The position numbers were made by a program, and so were the translations under genes. Under the pieces are notes generated by a model that was not told the origin of the DNA, made no database searches, and saw only the letters and a program-made list of their open reading frames with translations. A stretch of DNA of 64,000 nt from the human T2T-CHM13v2.0 reference genome, Homo sapiens: NCBI GenBank assembly GCA_009914755.4, contig CP068257.2, positions 20,288,001 to 20,352,000 on the forward strand, given 5' to 3'. Shown piece after piece: positions 19,838 to 63,545 of the stretch; within the stretch, counting starts at the first letter, position 1; each line of letters starts with the position of its first letter.

Positions 19838-21691
19838 TGCATGTTGGGGAGAGATGGTAGAGCTCATTGGGTGGGTAAGATTTGAATCAAGATCTGAATA
19901 AAGTTAGAAATTCAGTTTTTGGAGGCAGAACAGCTGGAACAAAGCTCTTATGTAGAGAAGTTGACTATCATATCTGAGGAATAGCAGGAAGGTCACGGTG
20001 ACCAAAATCGAGCGTGCAAGGGTGGGATTATAACAGATAAAGTCAAAGAGGTAACAGGTGGGCTATTGTAGAGAACTGACGATCATAATGAGGACTTTGG
20101 CTATTTACTGTGATTGAAATAAGGAGCATTTACAAACTTTTGAACCGGTTTACATTCAAAAAATTCTCACTCTAGCTGCTATAATGGAGAATAGAGTTTA
20201 GGAGGACAAGCGTAAATAATGGAAGACATGTTAGGAAACTACTGCAGATATCAAGGTAAAAGAGTACTGTGGCTTGGGGATACGGGCCATCAGAGATAGA
20301 AATGGTCAGAAACTAAGAACTGCGCCAGCATGATTCCCTAATGCAGAAATTTCTTAACTCCATATAGATGCAGCTTTAAAGCATAAAACAGGACGCTAAA
20401 ATAATTAAAGTAACACACTGAAATATTTATTAAGTAACAAATTGCTATTATTTGATTAGTGTCCATATATTTCTATTTAAAATACTAAGTAAAAATTCCT
20501 TTTAAATAAATATAAAAATCTGTATATGTAAAACTAAAATTAAAAAATATGTATATTGATTAACTGAACATTGAAACATAATATAAGCAAAATAATTATT
20601 CTTCATCCATTTCTATATATCGTAATCAGTTTTTAACTATATTTTTTCTATAATGTTATGTCTTCTGTGTTTCTTAAAGCATATTTTTAAAAATTATTGT
20701 GTATTTTTTATTTTATTTTTCTATAATTTCCTGTAATCAGGTTTAAATAATTATTCTTATCTTCTAATAATTTTATCTTCAGTCCTGACATTCTGCATTT
20801 TTATGGTTAATACGTTTAAAATCATTGCATGTAATTGATTCTACTCTCTATAACAAAACAAATTTCACTGAGAAATCATTCTGTAGAGACTTTGAGAGAC
20901 CCGATAAACTAAGAGAAAATGCTGCCAGAGGATATTCCCTGTTCTACTTTTTTCATTTTACAACATTAATATTTCCATCAAAATATTGTTATATAGGCTA
21001 TCTTGCCATTACTGATACTATCATTTTCCAAGAAAGTTTTTCAAGTTAAAGCTTATCAAATAATCTCTATTATTTGAATATATTACAAAAAAAGGTATTA
21101 AAATTATTGTCGATTTTATTTTCTCCCAAACAGTACATAAATTAATCCAGATAAAAAAATAGAAGCTCTAGACAAAGATTCTTGCCACAAATATATTATC
21201 TTTTAGTTTGTTTTTATAGTTCCAGTTTTCTTGTTTGCAATCCCTTTTTATAGTGACTGAATTATTCTAACAGTTTTGAAAGTGGAAATTTTGTGACATT
21301 GCAGTTAGTGAACACTTTGATTAAAGATGTACAACTAATTTAGAAAAATAAAATGAAATTTAAATTAAAGGACTCATTTGCAATAATACTCAAAACCATT
21401 AGTGGGACATTTGGGTTGATTTTAAAGTAATTCTTCAGATTTTCTAATGTCTGCTTTTTAATGAACATCAAAGAAAGAAAGCTATTTGCAATGCTGAAGA
21501 CTATTTTGCATTTAATATCAGCGTTATCAAAATATTGTGGCTCAGTACCACGAATGTCTATTTTTTTTAATTATATGCACTTTGACAAGCACAGCTTTTA
21601 TTTTAATTGGCAAAATATTGATGCGTGCTTGGGCACAATATAAGTTAGGTGTCCATCATCCTCAATTTTAAGTTCAATTTTCTTGCACTGA

Positions 21692-22024
<333 letters not shown>

Positions 22025-22569
22025 CTTGCATTGATTTCTTACTCTAGTATTTGTACTATTAATTCAAGAACTAATAATTTTATCTTCAATCCTGAAATTA
22101 TAAAATTGTTTACAATTTACAATAACATTCAACATGTCAGATGGTTCATCTTTGATAGAATAAATTCTAAACTTGTACTTTCACTCACTTAATTGAATTT
22201 AAAAATATCAATCTATTATTGGAGTTTACTTAATCGATTTCCTATTTGAAGCACTTTATAATGCTGAAGAAGTCTTCATTTTACTGTTTGGAAGTTCTGC
22301 TAAAGAAGCTACCATATTAGGAGGTATTGGTTCATTTCTTCATGCACAAGAGAATATTAGAATTAAATAATGATATAATTAATTTAGAAGATTTGTAATT
22401 TGATCTAAATAAAAATTCTTGCTTCACAAGATGATATGCAAACGTATCTCCATGGCTAGAATTTCTTTCTATTGTCCCTTGTGGGCATAAACTTTTTTAA
22501 AATACCGACTTTAAAGTAGAAACGGGATAGACATCCATTTTTTTTTTCTGCTTTTATGTGGTTAATAGT

Positions 22570-22950
22570 ACCAGTATAGGGCCGGGCTCAGTGGCTCACA
22601 CCCGTAATCCCAGCACTTTAGGAGGCTGAGGTGGGCGGATCACGAGGTCAGGAGATCGAGACCATCCTGGCTAACACGGTGAAACCCTGTCTCTACTAAA
22701 AATACAAAAAATTAGCCAGGCGTGGTGGTGAGCGCCTGTAGTCCCAGCTACTCTGGAGGCTGAGGCAAGAGAATGGCATGAACCCGGGAGATGGGGTCAT
22801 CGAGACCATCCTGGCTAACACAGTGAAACCCATCTCTACTAAAAATACAAAAAATTAGCCAGGCGTGGTGGTGAGCGCCTGTAGTACCAGCTACTCTGGA
22901 GGCTGAGGCAAGAGAATGGCATGAACCCGGGAGATGGGGTCACGCCAGAG
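22570..22950 (+). mobile_element. AluY-like element carrying an internal ~144-bp tandem duplication and truncated at its 3' end (no poly-A)
   Basis: Starts 'ggccgggctcagtggctcacacccgtaatcccagcactttaggaggctgaggtgggcggatcacgaggtcaggagatcgagaccatcctggctaacacggtgaaaccc' (AluY-diagnostic). The segment 'cgagaccatcctggctaacac...gcatgaacccgggagatggggtca' occurs twice in tandem (22657-22800 and 22801-22944, ~97% identical). The element then ends at '...cgccagagcttggacgtg' without the normal right-arm terminus or A-tail. Confidence 0.85.
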
Positions 22951-23975
22951 CTTGGACGTGTTTTGCTATTTGTGAGTGAGAGCTGCTTGTTTTTCCAGTG
23001 AGCATCATGCATGGTATGCTTGAATGAGAAGTGTTAGTTACTTTAAATTTGGAAAACTTTGAAAAAAGAGAGATGCATATCACTACACAGATTTCAGGTA
23101 TAATACATGTTCAATTGATAAGTCTATTCATTGCACATACATCTCGATCACTGATAAAGAAGATCTGGAAGAACTTGTAGTTCAACAAAACCCAGCGTGA
23201 CTAATTTTAACACAACTATTAGGAAGCTGATTTCATTAAAAATGAAAAATCTTACTCAGTAGCTAAATTGGAAAAGACATTGGGAAAACATGGATAAACC
23301 TAGCATGCCCCAGGCAAAACAGTTTGTATGGTCACACTAGGAATAAAAGGAAAAAAAAAGTCAAATTTTACTGTCTATATTTAAAATAAAATTAAAAGAA
23401 AAAAACTGAAGTCAATGGGCTCTAAGAATAAAGCTAGACCATGATTCCATCAAAAAGTCTTTGTTGATTAACTCACTTGAGAGATCAACAATACTGAAAC
23501 CAAGTAGCCTCACATCTGTGAGGCAAAGATAGAGACGAAGATGCTGGATGTCCTCTGGCCAAGAACATTGAGCACTTTGAATCTGTATTTTTAGTGGAGT
23601 TATAAAATAGATTTTCATGATTTCTTACACAATGGGAGGAAAAAACAAAAACAAAAGACCCAGAACAAAGAATCTGATAGGCAGCAGATGTCCTGAGAAA
23701 CATCCACAAGGCAGATGGCAGCAATGTGTCAATAACAAACAGACCTATGGGATAGAAACAGCATGACAAATATCATATGGAAGAATTTACTTAACTATTT
23801 CACATTTTCTTTAAAAAAAGTCATGACTTATGATTACCTAGATAGCATACAGATATAATAACCTGTAGGGGAAGAAGGAAGAGAGAGATAAAGACCATTG
23901 GGAGGAATACAGAAATAAAAATCTATATTGGATGCTGTACTGGTCAGCATACACATGACCAGCTTTAGAATTTGA

Positions 23976-24317
<342 letters not shown>

Positions 24318-42857: not shown

Positions 42858-45062
42858 TCAAGAGATTTTAATCTACTCTTGTTTCCTCATGACTGGGTTT
42901 TCACTGCTGTTTGAGACTGAGCCCACTCCTTCAACTATCCTCTTCATTAACTTTATCTTAGAAGTCTTTCTTTCCTGCTCCCCACTTGAGATTTGAGACA
43001 CACCTACGACATCCAATTTGCTGGGCTCCTTCTCAGCATTAATCCCTTCTGAATGTAGTTATATAATTCAGTTAGTTTTCTTTCATCATGTCTTTGCAAT
43101 CATACTGACAAAGAGTTACTAAAAGTAAAACTAATATTGCCCATTATCTGTCTTGACATCCAATTTCCTTAAAGATATTTCTTTAAGAAAACACCATATT
43201 CTTTTATTCCAAAGGAGGATTTGTATTTGTTTTTGAATATAGCAGTTTGTAAATATTACAAATTAAACTAAAATGTAGATTAACTATCCATTGTAAAAAA
43301 TATTTGAGCTTTATCAGAGCTGATAAAAAGAGGTTAAAATGTTGAAAAAGATCATAAATTCAATGGCATTTTGTTGTGTTTTAGAATAGAAAACTCACTT
43401 AAATTGTTAAAAGAAGACTTGCTAATTTATCTTTTCCCCATTAGGTTCAGTGCATTTTGGTAGATGAAGTTTAGAAAGAGGAAGGGAGCTCAGACTTAAT
43501 AGTTGGAGCCAACTAATATACTGCCATTCTAGTCTTTATGTTAAGATACTAGGGACAGAGTGTTCAATCTGTGTGTTATTATTAGTAGTATTGGCAATGA
43601 GAATATGTAAAGCAATAATTCTCAGCTGTGGGAAGGCAGGCACAGCAGCCTTCAGAGCTACCTCATATATGGTTCTCACATTCCCCTAAATTACCTTAAC
43701 CCATAAATCACTTTTATTCATCACTGTTTCCTGTGATTCACTGGGAAAAGCCTCGAAGAGCATCCTGTTACTGAGGTGAAGACAAAGCCTGGGCTGTCCC
43801 AGGCAGTTCCTCTCTAACTCAAGATGTCACATTTCTTAGGAGGCATAGGAATAAGACCTTGGTACTTTCAGGCAGTTCCACCCCCTCTCAGAATATTGCA
43901 CTCCCAGCACATTCTACAGTTATTCTTAGAAGTATAATCATAAAATCATAAATAATTGGATGGATTCAAGGCCACCTAAAGAATTGTCCTCCAGTAGAGA
44001 GTAGAATAATAGCTTCCAGAAACTGTTAGGGAAGAGGGTATGTAAGGAAAGGGGAGATACTAGTCAGAGGGTACAAAGTATTAGTTAGACTGACAAGAGG
44101 AAAAAGTTCTAGTGATCTACTGTACAGCATGGTAATTATATTTAATAATAATAATATAGTATATACTTTAAAATTACTAAAAAAGTAGGTTTTTTGGGAG
44201 GTGATCAGACCCAACACCAGGTCGTGGGGGTGACGAAGTCTGGCAGAGTCAAAGGAATGAGAAAAAGACAATTTGAGAGAGAAAGTGGGACCAGGGGGCC
44301 ATTGCGAGTGTGGAGGCTGCAAAGGCCCCGAGCTCTGGAAGCCCACGCTATTTATTGGTGATCAAACAAAGAACAGGTGGTGAGGATGTGGGGGTTGAAA
44401 GGAAATGGAGTATCAAGTGAATGAGAAACATATGGCTACTTGAGATAATGGGAGTGCTAGAAGCAAGGAACCAGTAAGTCTAGCCGACATGCAAGCCCTG
44501 CCTCAGCTTCTCTCCCAACACTCAACTTTTCTCCCAACAATTTTAAATGTTTTACCAACAAATAAATAATGATGATGAATATTGTAATTAACCAGATTTA
44601 AGCATTCCACAATATATACATGTGTTATAACATCACATTAAAATATTTACAATTATTATTTGTCAATTAAAAATAAAATTAAAAAAGAAAATATGGTAAT
44701 ATGGTAGAAATGAAATAATAAACCAGACTGACATGATATCTCTCTTTAAGTAACTAATTATTTTCTGTAGAAATATATATACAAAGACTTAATTACATTT
44801 GTGATAAACACAATGAGATTATACAGTACAATAGGGAGGGATTATATTCTTGGGAGTTAGAGAGACTTCTCCAAGAAGGTGATTTATTAGTTGAGATAAG
44901 AAAAACAAGTAGGTATTAGACATAAAGAACAGGAGGTGAGAAAAATTAAGTTAAAAAAAGGAAAGCTGGTTGTTTCGTGGATGAAAGGATGAAAGGAGTT
45001 TAGTATATTTTTAAAACTGAGAGAAAATGGGATAGCTTTATTGTAAAGATCTTGAAGACAGG

Positions 45063-45156
45063 GGTTCACTACAGCTTGAAGAGGTGATCAGAGGAAAATT
45101 CATACAACAGTGGTTCACTACAGCTTTAAGAGGTGATCAGAGGCAAATTCCTACAA
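45063..45156. repeat. Local tandem duplication, 2 x ~45 bp (period 49)
   Basis: 'ggttcactacagcttgaagaggtgatcagaggaaaattcatacaa' (45063-45107) and 'ggttcactacagctttaagaggtgatcagaggcaaattcctacaa' (45112-45156), ~91% identical, separated by 'cagt'. Confidence 0.85.
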
Positions 45157-58270: not shown

Positions 58271-60060
58271 TGTTTTCTGTTTATTTTGAAGAAATCTGCA
58301 TTGACTGCCTTTTTAAATGATACATTTTGAATGTTATTGACTAACTCTATAGAAGTTGCTCATATAGTAAGGACTTTAAAGTAAGTATCAAATTATTTGG
58401 CAAAAGAATATAGTAGCATGATTAAAGTGGAAAACAATGTGGTCCCATATAAATTCAAAAAAATAGTAAAAAAGTGAATTTATACAGGAACATAAAACAT
58501 ATTTTCTTATTTTCTGTTTTTCATTATTTTTTGCTATCAGGTAAAAATAAACCAGGTTGCTTATTTTCATTTTTCATTAAGTAAAACATAAGTTAATTAA
58601 CGAATCGCAAAAAACTCAATCAGTGTCAGTGTTGAATAAATATAAGTAACGTGAAATTCAATTGAAAGTAGCCTGATTTCCAGATACCAATTTAAGTTAG
58701 TTATCTATTTATTTATTTTTCTGATGTGTGATAATTTATAGAGTCTTCTGTTAATTAAAGAGCGTAATACCACATATGAAAATTTTTTGTACACTTTATT
58801 GTGCTCTAACCTATAACGACATATTTTTGAAGCTAGTTGCATATTGCATGTCTAAGAAAGGCCATGTAAAGTCCAATGAGAGAGTACTAATTATTTGAGA
58901 GAGATGCATATATTCAAAATGCCTTAAAAATGAAGGTGCATTTGTTAAGTTCAATTCATATTTTTTTAAAGACTCGAAATTGTGTGTATATTAAAGCAGG
59001 CCAATTAAATCCATTAGTGACAAAATCACTGATTACTGTTAGGTCAGAAAAGTAGAGCTTGTTGCAACGTGAAATATTACAGTTATGTTATAGAGCTAGA
59101 TAAGTGAATCCTTAGTATATCTTTTTATTTCTAAAATTGAACTCTTAAATATTCTGTGCTTAATCATACTAACAGTTCTTGTAATAAATCACATTTAGTG
59201 CAATTGGTTCACGTTTGTTTTGAATGTGTTGTTAGTATTACCTAGCATTGAGTGTGTTTGCGTGTCTGTGGTCTGTACGTGTATGTATGTTGGGGAGGAT
59301 TGGACCCCTCTCCAGAGAAGAAAATTATCATAATTCTTGATTGAAAATACATTCTCCTCAGTCTATGCATAATCTGCTTTTTTGTTAGTCATTTTAGTAA
59401 CATAATAAGAACCTATAGAATCACCACCTGCTCCCCCACCCGCCATCACACATAGACAGACACACACAAGCTAAGGCATTGGGGCCTTGGGAATGGAGTG
59501 GAAAGGATGGATATTCCCATTCCGTCCATTTCATTCCTTGCTTCCTCACTTTACTCCATCTTTCATAAAACTATTATCTAAAAGGCAACGCTAATAATTA
59601 TCTTTACTTTGTTTTTTTGAAAATATAATTTATAGCATTAACATATATAGTTAAGTACATTTTTCTTATTGAAATTATTTTAGCTTTCTAAACAATAGAT
59701 GATTTTATACACACGTTATGATGAAATTTAAACATTATTTTGCTATAATTTATTTATCTTAAGTAACATATAATGTAGTATGGCAGGAATATAACACACT
59801 TTAAACATACTACAGTTTAAACATCTACAGTCCTCTTATGAGTATCTGTGTTTTTTTCACTGTTTAGCAATTCTGAACATTTCTCTCTTAAGCGTTCTTA
59901 TAACTGTTTCTTATGAATGAGAACCAATTTCCTTTGGAGATATATTTAAGATTTCTTTAGAGACATGCTGAATCTCTTGTTTTATGTGAATTTCCTATTT
60001 TATAAGTTAGTGCCAATTTGTTTCTATAATCAATGTGTAAAATAGGTGGATACATGATAG

Positions 60061-60145
60061 AAAGATAGATTAGATATAGATAGATAGATAATAGAGAGAC
60101 AGAGAGATAGACAGATAGATGATAGATAGATAAAATAGAGTGACC
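60061..60145. repeat. Imperfect (GATA)n/(GACA)n tetranucleotide microsatellite
   Basis: 'tagatatagatagatagataatagagagacagagagatagacagatagatgatagatagataaaatagag' seen directly. Confidence 0.85.
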
Positions 60146-62543: not shown

Positions 62544-63545
62544 GAGCTTCTGCACGGCAAAGGAAGCTATCATCAGAGTGAACAGGCAACCTACAGTATG
62601 GGAGAAAGTTTTTACAATCGATCCATTTCACAAAGGGCTAATATCCAGAATCTACAAAGAACCTAAACAAATTTACAAGGAAAACAACAAACAACCCCAT
62701 CAAAAAGTGGGCAAAGGATATGACCAGACACTTCTCAAAAGAAGACATTTATGCAGCCAACAGACATATGAAAAAATGCTTATCATCACTGGTTGTTAGA
62801 GAAATGCAAATCAAAACCACCATGAGATACCGTCTCATGCCAGTTAGAATGGCAATCATTAAAAAGTCAGGAAACAACAGATACTAGAGAGGATGTGGAG
62901 AAATAGGAACACTTTTACACTGTTGGTGGGACTGTAAACTAGTTCAACCATTGTGGAAGTCAGTGTGGCGATTCCTCAGGAATCTAGAACTAGAAATACC
63001 ATTTGACCCAGCAATCCCATTACCCAAAGGATTATAAAGCATTCCACTATAAAGACACATGCACATGTATGTATATTGTGGCACTATTCACAACAGCAAA
63101 GACTTGGAAACAACCCAAATGTTCATCAATAATAGACTGGATAAAGAAAATATGGCACATATACTGCATGCAATACTATGCAGCCATAAAAAAGGATGAG
63201 TTCATGTCCTTTGCAGGGACATGGATGAAGCTGGAAACCATCATTCTCAGCAAACTATCGCAAGAACAGAAAACCAAACACAGCGTGTTCTCACTCATAA
63301 GTGGAAGTGGAACAATGAGAACACATGGACATAGGGAGGGGAACGTCACACACCAGGGCCTGTTTGGGGGTGGGGTTGTAGGGGAGGAATAACATAAGGA
63401 GAAATACCCAATGTAGGTGACAGGTTGATGGGTGCAGCGAACCATCATGGCACATGTATACCTATGTAACAAATCTGCACGTTCTGCACATGTACCCCAG
63501 AACTTAAAGTATAATAAGTAAATAAATAAATAAAATAAAATAATG
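62544..63545 (+). mobile_element. L1 (L1PA-type) 5'-truncated 3' fragment (~1 kb): ORF2 C-terminal region + 3' UTR
   Basis: 'agagcttctgcacggcaaaggaagctatcatcagagtgaacaggcaacctacagtatgggagaaagtttttacaatc...gggctaatatccagaatctacaaagaacctaaacaaatttacaag...' matches the L1 ORF2 C-terminal region. + strand ORFs 62524-62799 and 63003-63392 translate to L1 ORF2 C-terminal sequence ('NRQPT.WEK.F...[15 protein letters not shown]', 'KTWKQPKC.S.IDWIKK.WHIY.M.YYAAIKKDEFMSFAGTWMKLETIILSKLSQEQKTKH.VFSLI.G'). Ends with L1 3' UTR '...gttgatgggtgcagcgaaccatcatggcacatgtatacctatgtaacaaatctgcacgttctgcacatgtaccccagaacttaaagtataataagtaaataaataaataaaataaaataa'. Confidence 0.92.

What the first reader, a model, noticed from the sequence alone, without database searches (positions are those of the whole stretch)
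22570..22950. AluY-type element with an internal 144-bp tandem duplication and a non-canonical truncated 3' end
Alus are ~300 bp, but this one spans about 380 bp. A block beginning 'cgagaccatcctggctaacac' and ending 'gggagatggggtca' is present twice head-to-tail (22657-22800 and 22801-22944), with about 5 differences between copies. The element ends abruptly ('ggggtcacgccagagcttggacgtg') with no right-arm terminus or poly-A. The sequence at the duplication boundary ('gggagatggggtca') also departs from the Alu consensus ('gggaggcggagcttgcagtgagc'). This suggests that a deletion and a duplication share a breakpoint. A 144-bp tandem unit inside a SINE is a plausible VNTR seed and could vary in copy number between individuals.
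Basis: seen in the sequence. Interest (0 to 1): 0.5.

Follow-up and report, generated by a model that had tools for sequence, protein, structure and literature searches.

The report
Truncated Alu with old internal duplication
This is an ordinary primate Alu repeat that lost its tail and later had 144 bases copied head-to-tail inside it, a kind of change already catalogued thousands of times in the human genome and with no sign of function here.

Summary
A Y-lineage Alu starts at 22580. It matches the consensus from position 1 to 211, then runs into non-Alu sequence with no right-arm end, no poly-A and no target-site duplication. Inside it, a 144-bp unit (22655-22798) is repeated as a 143-bp unit (22799-22941). 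The two copies differ by 3 substitutions and one 1-bp indel (97% identity).

Both copies share six private substitutions and the same 8 non-Alu bases (ATGGGGTC). They are therefore copies of each other, not two separate insertions. This also shows the 3' truncation came first. The duplication then copied a segment spanning the Alu/non-Alu junction, ending 8 bp beyond it, so the two events do not share a breakpoint. Only 1 bp of microhomology flanks the unit.

Copy divergence puts the duplication at roughly a quarter of the element's age, which means millions of years old rather than recent.

The locus meets every criterion of the published class of Alu-derived tandem repeats (2,663 in hg19, mean 2.3 units). 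Copy-number variation and the ortholog state could not be tested, because no primate DNA was reachable with these tools.

Verdict: ordinary and low interest.

The parts
22564..22579 (+). 5' flank (AATAGTACCAGTATAG, preceded by TT), where the upstream target-site duplication copy would lie. It has no partner downstream.
   Evidence: Exact and fuzzy searches found no second copy in the window. The same kind of search found 11-17 bp duplications abutting 5 of the 11 other Alus in the window.
22580..22654 (+). Unduplicated 5' part of the Alu left monomer, consensus positions 1-75, with an intact 5' end
   Evidence: Alignment to the consensus and to 11 other Alus in the window. Rfam Metazoa_SRP sub-threshold hit at 22581-22695.
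22655..22798 (+). Copy 1 of the duplicated unit (144 bp). It contains Alu consensus 76-211 (end of the left monomer, the A-rich linker, most of the right monomer) plus 8 non-Alu bases.
22799..22941 (+). Copy 2 of the duplicated unit (143 bp). It differs from copy 1 by G>A at unit position 24, a 1-bp indel plus a substitution at positions 34-35, and C>A at position 89.
   Evidence: The six private substitutions shared with copy 1 are seen.
22791..22798 (+). ATGGGGTC: the 8 non-Alu bases after consensus position 211, first occurrence (the truncation junction carried inside copy 1)
   Evidence: The 20-mer GAACCCGGGAGATGGGGTCA occurs exactly twice in the window, with 0 expected by chance.
22934..22941 (+). 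ATGGGGTC, second occurrence. Here it continues into the unique 3' flank (ACGCCAGAGC...).
22942..23016 (+). 3' flank: unique sequence that is not demonstrably Alu. The first T4 run (22961-22964) would end any Pol III transcript.
   Evidence: Best local alignment to any Alu consensus on either strand gives P=0.38 against random window segments. There is no other copy in the window. The Pol III termination point is an inference, not a test.

Best explanation
This is a neutral, inert relic made in three steps.

1. A Y-lineage Alu inserted on the + strand with an intact 5' end at 22580. This step is inferred to be classical L1-mediated retrotransposition.

2. The element lost everything after consensus position 211: about 70 bp of the right arm, the poly-A tail, the downstream target-site duplication and an unknown amount of flank. 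The most likely cause is a post-insertion deletion repaired by end joining, which created the junction GGGAG|ATGGGGTCACGCC.

3. Later, a 144-bp segment spanning that junction was duplicated in tandem. The segment runs from Alu position 76 to 8 bp beyond the junction. Only 1 bp (A) of microhomology lies at the breakpoints. That fits end joining or an unequal sister-chromatid or replication-restart event, not slippage between flanking direct repeats.

Since then the two copies have accumulated 3 substitutions and 1 indel, two of these changes at former CpG sites.

Without a poly-A tail the element cannot retrotranspose. Nothing indicates any function.
For: Shown:
- The repeat has period 143/144, 2.0 copies and 97% identity.
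- The Alu matches the consensus over positions 1-211 at 93.4% (14 mismatches). Identity then ends, in both copies, at the same base and with the same 8 non-Alu bases.
- Six substitutions relative to the consensus are shared by both copies (GCCAGG, GGTGAGCG counted as two, CTCTGG, GGCAAG, GGCATG). At least three of these occur in none of the 11 other Alus in the window.
- There is no poly-A, no orphan Alu tail and no target-site duplication, while the same kind of search finds duplications for neighbouring Alus.
- Rfam independently sees three 7SL-derived monomer-like segments (left, right, right) and two Alu-derived mir-1268-like segments 143 nt apart. All are below their gathering scores.

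Inferred:
- Order of events. The junction lies inside both copies, so it existed before the copying.
- Age. Six changes predate the duplication, against 1 (copy 1) and 3 (copy 2) after it. That places the duplication at about a quarter of the element's age.
- Class membership. The locus meets all criteria of the catalogued Alu-derived tandem repeats. Like 94% of TE-derived tandem repeats, it lacks flanking direct repeats (PMC3389668).
Against: - No ortholog or second assembly of the locus could be obtained. The deletion is therefore inferred from the absence of tail, poly-A and target-site duplication, not seen directly.
The 11 other Alus in the window confirm the relevant columns.
- The 3' flank carries two short words colinear with the missing Alu tail (GAGCTTG and CAGTGAGC, 41 nt apart). 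A post hoc test gave P about 0.002-0.005, so the 3' end may be patchier than one clean deletion.
- The age estimate rests on a handful of substitutions, and gene conversion between the copies would make it too young.
Confidence: 0.8

Rival explanations
1. The truncated end is original. The Alu fragment entered as a non-classical, endonuclease-independent insertion during double-strand-break repair, already lacking its tail. The tandem duplication followed later as in the main explanation.
For: The element is 3'-truncated, has no poly-A and has no target-site duplication. These are the listed hallmarks of such insertions, which often carry a few to tens of non-Alu filler bases at the 3' end (PMC5402677).
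Against: The 5' end is complete to consensus position 1, whereas the fragments described are truncated at both ends. A TT|AATA site compatible with L1 endonuclease lies 16 bp upstream of the Alu head, though in 34% GC DNA that is weak evidence. Post-insertion deletions are the commoner cause of partial old Alus: 77% of polymorphic AluS cases in PMC5402677.
Confidence: 0.2
2. The two-copy state is one allele of a copy-number-variable minisatellite, with 1, 2 or 3+ copies in the population.
For: Two adjacent 143-bp units at 97% identity can in principle misalign. Alu-derived tandem repeats are reported to expand stepwise over time (PMC3389668).
Against: The copies have diverged by 2.8%, and their longest identical tracts are only 55 and 53 bp. 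From general knowledge, that is short for efficient homologous exchange. The duplication is therefore old, and the two-copy state has probably been stable. Most catalogued Alu-derived repeats stay at about 2 units (mean 2.3). No population data could be reached.
Confidence: 0.12
3. Truncation and duplication arose together in one complex replication-based event with serial template switching.
For: The Alu truncation point and the duplication's 3' breakpoint lie only 8 bp apart. A 6-bp GGAGAT word occurs at 22651-22656 and 22787-22792. There are weak Alu-like words in the 3' flank and a 10/12 inverted repeat at the junction.
Against: - The junction plus its 8 non-Alu bases is present in both copies. 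A single event copying from an intact template would have had to make the same jump twice.
- The GGAGAT words are 136 bp apart, out of register with the 144-bp period.
- The inverted repeat is not significant (P=0.04-0.06).
- The flank shows no significant Alu similarity under a fair test (P=0.38).
Confidence: 0.05
4. The duplication is an assembly artefact, either a false duplication of one unit or a haplotype mis-join.
For: Nothing positive. It cannot be excluded without reads.
Against: The copies differ at 4 positions in 143 bp. That is about 2.8%, far above the allelic difference expected between haplotypes of one individual (general knowledge), whereas a mis-overlap of the same reads would give identical copies. 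Two of the differences are CpG decays, as expected of real, aged paralogous copies.
Confidence: 0.02
5. These are two independent, adjacent Alu insertions, the second being 5'-truncated.
For: 5'-truncated Alus are common, and the second block begins inside the left monomer.
Against: Both blocks share six private substitutions. Both end at the same consensus base and are followed by the same 8 non-Alu bases. Neither has a poly-A tail or a target-site duplication.
Confidence: 0.01

Closest known systems
Alu-derived tandem repeats / minisatellites (Ahmed & Liang 2012, PMC3389668; Jurka & Gentles 2006 as cited there)
   Same: Part of an Alu is repeated head-to-tail in place, at about two units and with high identity between them. 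The units resemble each other more than they resemble any other Alu. No flanking direct repeats are present, as in 94% of TE-derived tandem repeats.
   Different: The unit is not purely Alu. It carries 8 bases of flanking DNA because the Alu had already been truncated. The direct-repeat slippage origin described by Jurka and Gentles does not apply, because only 1 bp of microhomology is present.
Partially deleted old Alu elements (AluS deletion polymorphisms, Kryatova et al. 2017, PMC5402677)
   Same: An Alu has lost part of its body, so that tail, poly-A and one target-site duplication are missing.
   Different: Whether the deletion is fixed or polymorphic is unknown here, and the deleted allele was later duplicated internally.
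Non-classical (endonuclease-independent) Alu insertions
   Same: 3' truncation, no poly-A, no target-site duplication, and possible short filler sequence.
   Different: The 5' end is complete. The pre-insertion site could not be examined, so the defining target-site deletion is untested.
SVA elements and other composite repeats with an internal VNTR
   Same: A retroelement-derived sequence containing an internal tandem repeat.
   Different: There is no hexamer repeat, no SINE-R part, no antisense Alu-like region and only two units. This is a single-locus accident and not a property of a mobile family. The junction 20-mer occurs nowhere else in the window, and the only matches in the scanned collections are chance hits in non-Alu sequence: the two metagenome hits were read and are not Alu, and the third is in a Hahella sp. 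genome.

Membership tests
Alu SINE (Y lineage) | Dimeric 7SL-derived body: left monomer, A-rich linker (A5TACA6), right monomer | tested here: met
   93.4% identity to the consensus over positions 1-211. The element aligns column by column with 11 other Alus in the window. Rfam Metazoa_SRP sub-threshold hits fall on each monomer.
Alu SINE (Y lineage) | Complete 3' end of the right arm followed by a poly-A tail | tested here: not met
   Identity stops at consensus position 211. There is no A-run, and every Alu tail found in the window belongs to another element.
Alu SINE (Y lineage) | Flanking target-site duplication | tested here: not met
   No partner for the 5' flank exists. The positive control found duplications of 11-17 bp abutting five other Alus.
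Alu SINE (Y lineage) | AluY diagnostic bases | tested here: inconclusive
   The right arm shows Y states (GTAGTCC; AATGGCrTG; GGyGrGCG). The two left-arm sites read CCTGGCTAACAC instead of CCCGGCTAAAAC. No Dfam or RepeatMasker was available.
TE-derived tandem repeat (criteria of PMC3389668) | Unit >20 bp, at least 2 units, at least 95% identity between units, GC at least 40%, overlapping a TE by at least one period | tested here: met
   Unit 143/144 bp, 2.0 copies, 97% identity, GC 53%, lying inside an Alu. The criteria are quoted.
Direct-repeat-mediated minisatellite origin (Haber & Louis; Jurka & Gentles) | Short direct repeats of 5-20 bp flanking the repeat unit, in register with the period | tested here: not met
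   Only 1 bp (A) is shared at the breakpoints. The 6-bp GGAGAT words are 136 bp apart, not 144.
VNTR (variable-number tandem repeat) | Copy number differs between individuals | not testable with these tools
   No human or primate assemblies were reachable. Scans of the metagenome, bacterial-genome and viral collections gave only chance matches in non-Alu sequence or nothing. ORF look-ups and one protein search found no orthologous locus.
Non-classical Alu insertion | 3' truncation, no poly-A, no target-site duplication | tested here: met
   The same features also follow from a simple later deletion.
Non-classical Alu insertion | No L1 endonuclease site at the insertion point, and a deletion of target DNA relative to the empty site | not testable with these tools
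   This needs the pre-insertion (empty) site from an outgroup. A TT|AATA motif 16 bp upstream is compatible with classical insertion but is uninformative in AT-rich DNA.

The most novel reading that the evidence does not exclude
The locus could be a copy-number-variable, Alu-derived 143-bp minisatellite with 1-, 2- and 3-copy alleles segregating. Separately or in addition, its 3' end could be a patchwork left by templated, error-prone break repair. That would make truncation and duplication two footprints of a recurrently fragile site close to an inverted Alu 556 bp upstream.
Probability: 0.1. Interest if true: 0.25.

Novelty: already known. Interest (0 to 1): 0.08.

Why it matters
It matters very little. 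It is one more example of a catalogued class: 2,663 Alu-derived tandem repeats in the human reference, typically of two units. Its modest value is as a clean worked case. Because the duplicated unit carries 8 bases of non-Alu sequence, the order of events (truncation, then duplication) can be read from the sequence alone. The near-absence of microhomology places it among the majority of such repeats whose initiating mechanism is still unexplained. If it proved copy-number variable, it would be a minor structural-variant marker.

Tried and rejected
1. Finding the same locus elsewhere.
- The junction 20-mer GAACCCGGGAGATGGGGTCA was scanned in three collections. In metagenome contigs it gave 2 hits; both were read and are chance matches in non-Alu DNA. 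In bacterial and archaeal genomes it gave 1 hit, in a Hahella genome. In viral contigs it gave 0.
- A 25-mer from the 3' flank gave 0 hits in viral contigs.
- Exact look-ups of four window ORFs found nothing. Two of these ORFs span the junctions.
- One protein homology search with the 57-aa junction ORF returned only two hits, each covering just over half of the query at 73-80% identity, and no ortholog.

2. Is the 3' flank a diverged continuation of the Alu?
- Ordinary local alignment to the Alu tail was not significant (64-95 of 500 shuffles reached the observed score).
- The best alignment to any Alu consensus on either strand gave P=0.38.
- A long-gap colinear chain gave P=0.005 and shared 7-mers gave P=0.002. 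That test was designed after seeing the pattern, so it is recorded as unexplained and not adopted.

3. Is the flank an antisense Alu? Only 5 of 500 shuffles reached the observed score in a heavily gapped alignment. The signal was not reproduced under the stricter null, so this was rejected.

4. Fold-back (snap-back) signature at the junction. The inverted repeat TGGCATGAACCC / GGGGTCACGCCA matches at 10/12, with P=0.04-0.06 against random window positions. This is not significant.

5. Was the junction sequence templated from nearby DNA? No k-mer of 13 or more is shared with the rest of the window, and shorter matches are near chance numbers.

6. Does the duplication start at the left-arm position homologous to the right-arm truncation point? 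A left/right monomer alignment maps position 75|76 to 233|234, not 211|212. The idea was dropped.

7. My early label 'AluSc rather than AluY' was withdrawn after checking the published subfamily comparison.

8. The Rfam gathering-threshold scan of the whole window gave no hits.

9. Jurka & Gentles 2006 is not held in the library.

Full report
**What is in the sequence**

Reading 22300-23300 shows a sequence starting GGCCGGGCTCAGTGGCTCAC at 22580. Tandem Repeats Finder reports a single strong array at 22655-22942: period 143, 2.0 copies, 97% matches, score 548. It is the highest-scoring tandem repeat in the whole 64-kb window. The repeat finder gives the same two blocks, with start-to-start spacing of 144 and then 143.

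A global alignment of 22655-22798 (144 bp) against 22799-22941 (143 bp) shows 3 substitutions and one 1-bp indel.
- The element starts at 22580, not 22570.
- The second unit is 143 bp, not 144.
- There are four differences, not about five.

**It is an Alu, and which kind**

blastn with Alu consensus sequences finds about a dozen Alus in the window. The target matches consensus positions 1-211 at 93.4%.

A MAFFT alignment of the target with 11 other Alus from the same window confirms each relevant column without relying on my memory. Rfam gives independent, sub-threshold support. Three Metazoa_SRP-like segments lie at 22581-22695, 22715-22838 and 22858-22956, corresponding to left, right and right monomers. 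Two mir-1268-like hits lie 143 nt apart at 22713-22764 and 22856-22907, on the segment I take to be the start of the right monomer (from general knowledge). All are below their gathering scores.

On subfamily:
- The right arm carries Y-lineage states (GTAGTCC, AATGGCrTG, GGyGrGCG).
- The two left-arm sites read CCTGGCTAACAC, as in three other young Alus of the window.
- I first labelled the element AluSc. After reading the published AluS/AluY comparison I withdrew that label (PMC5402677 and its supplement).
The exact subfamily needs Dfam or RepeatMasker.

**The 3' end**

In both copies, identity with the consensus and with all in-window Alus stops after GAACCCGGGAG (position 211). The next bases are ATGGGGTC instead of GCGGAGCT. 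After the second copy the sequence runs on as ACGCCAGAGCTTGGACGTG....

There is no A-run. Every Alu-tail match in the window belongs to another complete Alu. The 5' flank AATAGTACCAGTATAG has no second copy. As a positive control, the same kind of search found 11-17 bp target-site duplications abutting five of the other Alus. These include the neighbours at 21738-22023 and 24030-24317. The tail, the poly-A and the downstream target-site duplication are therefore truly absent.

**Order of events**

Both copies share six substitutions relative to the consensus: GCCAGG, GGTGAGCG (two changes), CTCTGG, GGCAAG and GGCATG. At least three of these occur in no other Alu of the window. Both copies also share the identical 8 non-Alu bases. 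The 20-mer spanning the junction occurs exactly twice in the window, against 0 expected by chance.

Two independent insertions cannot explain this. It also means the Alu/non-Alu junction existed before the copying.

The duplicated segment is Alu 76-211 plus ATGGGGTC. A single complex event is unlikely, because copying from an intact template would have required the same jump twice.

**Mechanism of the duplication**

The reconstructed pre-duplication sequence reads ...CAGGAG[ATCGAG...GGGGTC]ACGCC.... Only one base (A) is shared at the breakpoints. A 6-bp GGAGAT word occurs at 22651-22656 and 22787-22792, but the two are 136 bp apart and out of register with the 144-bp period.

The direct-repeat slippage model cited for Alu minisatellites therefore does not apply. 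The locus belongs with the 94% of TE-derived tandem repeats that lack flanking repeats or an incomplete terminal unit (PMC3389668). I infer end joining, or an unequal sister-chromatid or replication-restart event. This step is inferred, not shown.

**Age**

Within the duplicated segment, six changes predate the duplication. One change (copy 1) and three changes (copy 2, counting the indel) postdate it. Two of the post-duplication changes are at former CpG sites.

This places the duplication at about a quarter of the element's age. For a Y-lineage Alu (general knowledge), that means several million years, with a wide error. Gene conversion between the copies would make this an underestimate.

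The longest identical tracts between the copies are 55 and 53 bp. From general knowledge, that is short for efficient homologous exchange. The 2.8% divergence also argues strongly against an assembly artefact or a haplotype mis-join.

**Origin of the truncation**

The leading reading is a post-insertion deletion. The rival is a non-classical, endonuclease-independent insertion, whose hallmarks are met: 3' truncation, no poly-A, no target-site duplication, short filler (PMC5402677). Against the rival, the 5' end is complete, and deletions are the commoner fate of old Alus in that study (77% of polymorphic AluS). Only an orthologous empty or filled site can decide between them.

**Leads about the 3' flank that did not hold**

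- Ordinary alignment to the Alu tail is not significant.
- The best alignment to any Alu on either strand gives P=0.38.
- An apparent antisense-Alu match (5/500 shuffles) was not reproduced under that stricter null.
- A 10/12 inverted repeat across the junction gives P=0.04-0.06.
- No nearby template for the junction bases was found.
- One oddity remains. GAGCTTG and CAGTGAGC are adjacent in the missing Alu tail, and they occur colinearly in the flank 41 nt apart. The test gave P=0.002-0.005, but it was framed after seeing the pattern. I record it as unexplained.
- An idea that the duplication begins at the left-arm homologue of the truncation point failed an explicit monomer alignment.

**Search for the same locus elsewhere**

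- Pattern scans of the metagenome, bacterial-genome and viral collections returned only chance hits in non-Alu sequence or nothing.
- Exact look-ups of four ORFs found nothing.
- One protein homology search found no ortholog.

Copy-number polymorphism and the ancestral state therefore remain untested.

**Comparison with what is known**

Ahmed & Liang (PMC3389668) catalogued 7,276 TE-derived tandem repeats in hg19. Of these, 2,663 derive from Alu, with a mean of 2.3 units for AluS and AluY. Their criteria were a unit over 20 bp, GC of at least 40%, at least 2 units and at least 95% identity. This locus meets all of them: 143 bp, 53% GC, 2.0 copies, 97%.

It is an ordinary member of a known class. 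The only slightly unusual detail is that the unit straddles a pre-existing Alu truncation junction. There is no evidence of function. Lacking a poly-A tail, the element is dead as a retrotransposon (general knowledge).

**Verdict**

The feature is of a known kind and of low interest.

Noticed in passing
window 21681-22041: An AluSx-type element lies on the minus strand (21738-22023), in inverted orientation 556 bp upstream of the target. It has a clear 17-bp target-site duplication (TCTTGCAyTGATTTCTT at 21681-21697 and 22025-22041). Its A-tail has turned into a (TTTTG)n microsatellite at 21709-21745.
   Followed up: partly
window 22713-22764 and 22856-22907: Two sub-threshold Rfam mir-1268 hits (64 and 60 bits; gathering score 83) lie 143 nt apart, one in each copy of the duplicated unit. 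From general knowledge I take these to be Alu right-monomer sequence rather than miRNA genes.
   Followed up: yes
window 22948-23003: The words GAGCTTG and CAGTGAGC are adjacent in the missing Alu tail. They occur colinearly in the 3' flank, separated by 41 nt. A post hoc test gave P of about 0.002-0.005, while all fair tests of Alu similarity in the flank are non-significant.
   Followed up: partly
window 10806-11108: This AluSx-type element has a middle A-rich linker expanded to a run of more than 20 A, compared with 5-6 in the other Alus of the window.
   Followed up: no
window 45058-45156: A second two-unit tandem duplication: 49-bp unit, 2.0 copies, 92% identity. It lies outside any Alu detected here.
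   Followed up: no
window 8400-8452 and 60059-60140: An (AT)26 microsatellite, and a GATA-rich imperfect tandem repeat with a period of 31 to 42.
   Followed up: no
window 63003-63392: A 129-aa ORF whose translation (…DWIKKIWHIY…AAIKKDEFMSFAGTWMKLETIILSKLSQEQKTKH…) looks, from memory, like the C-terminal end of LINE-1 ORF2. A Pfam scan returned no family.
   Followed up: partly
window 22990-23003: A pyrimidine tract followed by AG (TTGTTTTTCCAG|TGAGC) lies just downstream of the truncated Alu and looks like a splice acceptor. No coding evidence was found, and no gene could be identified in the window.
   Followed up: no
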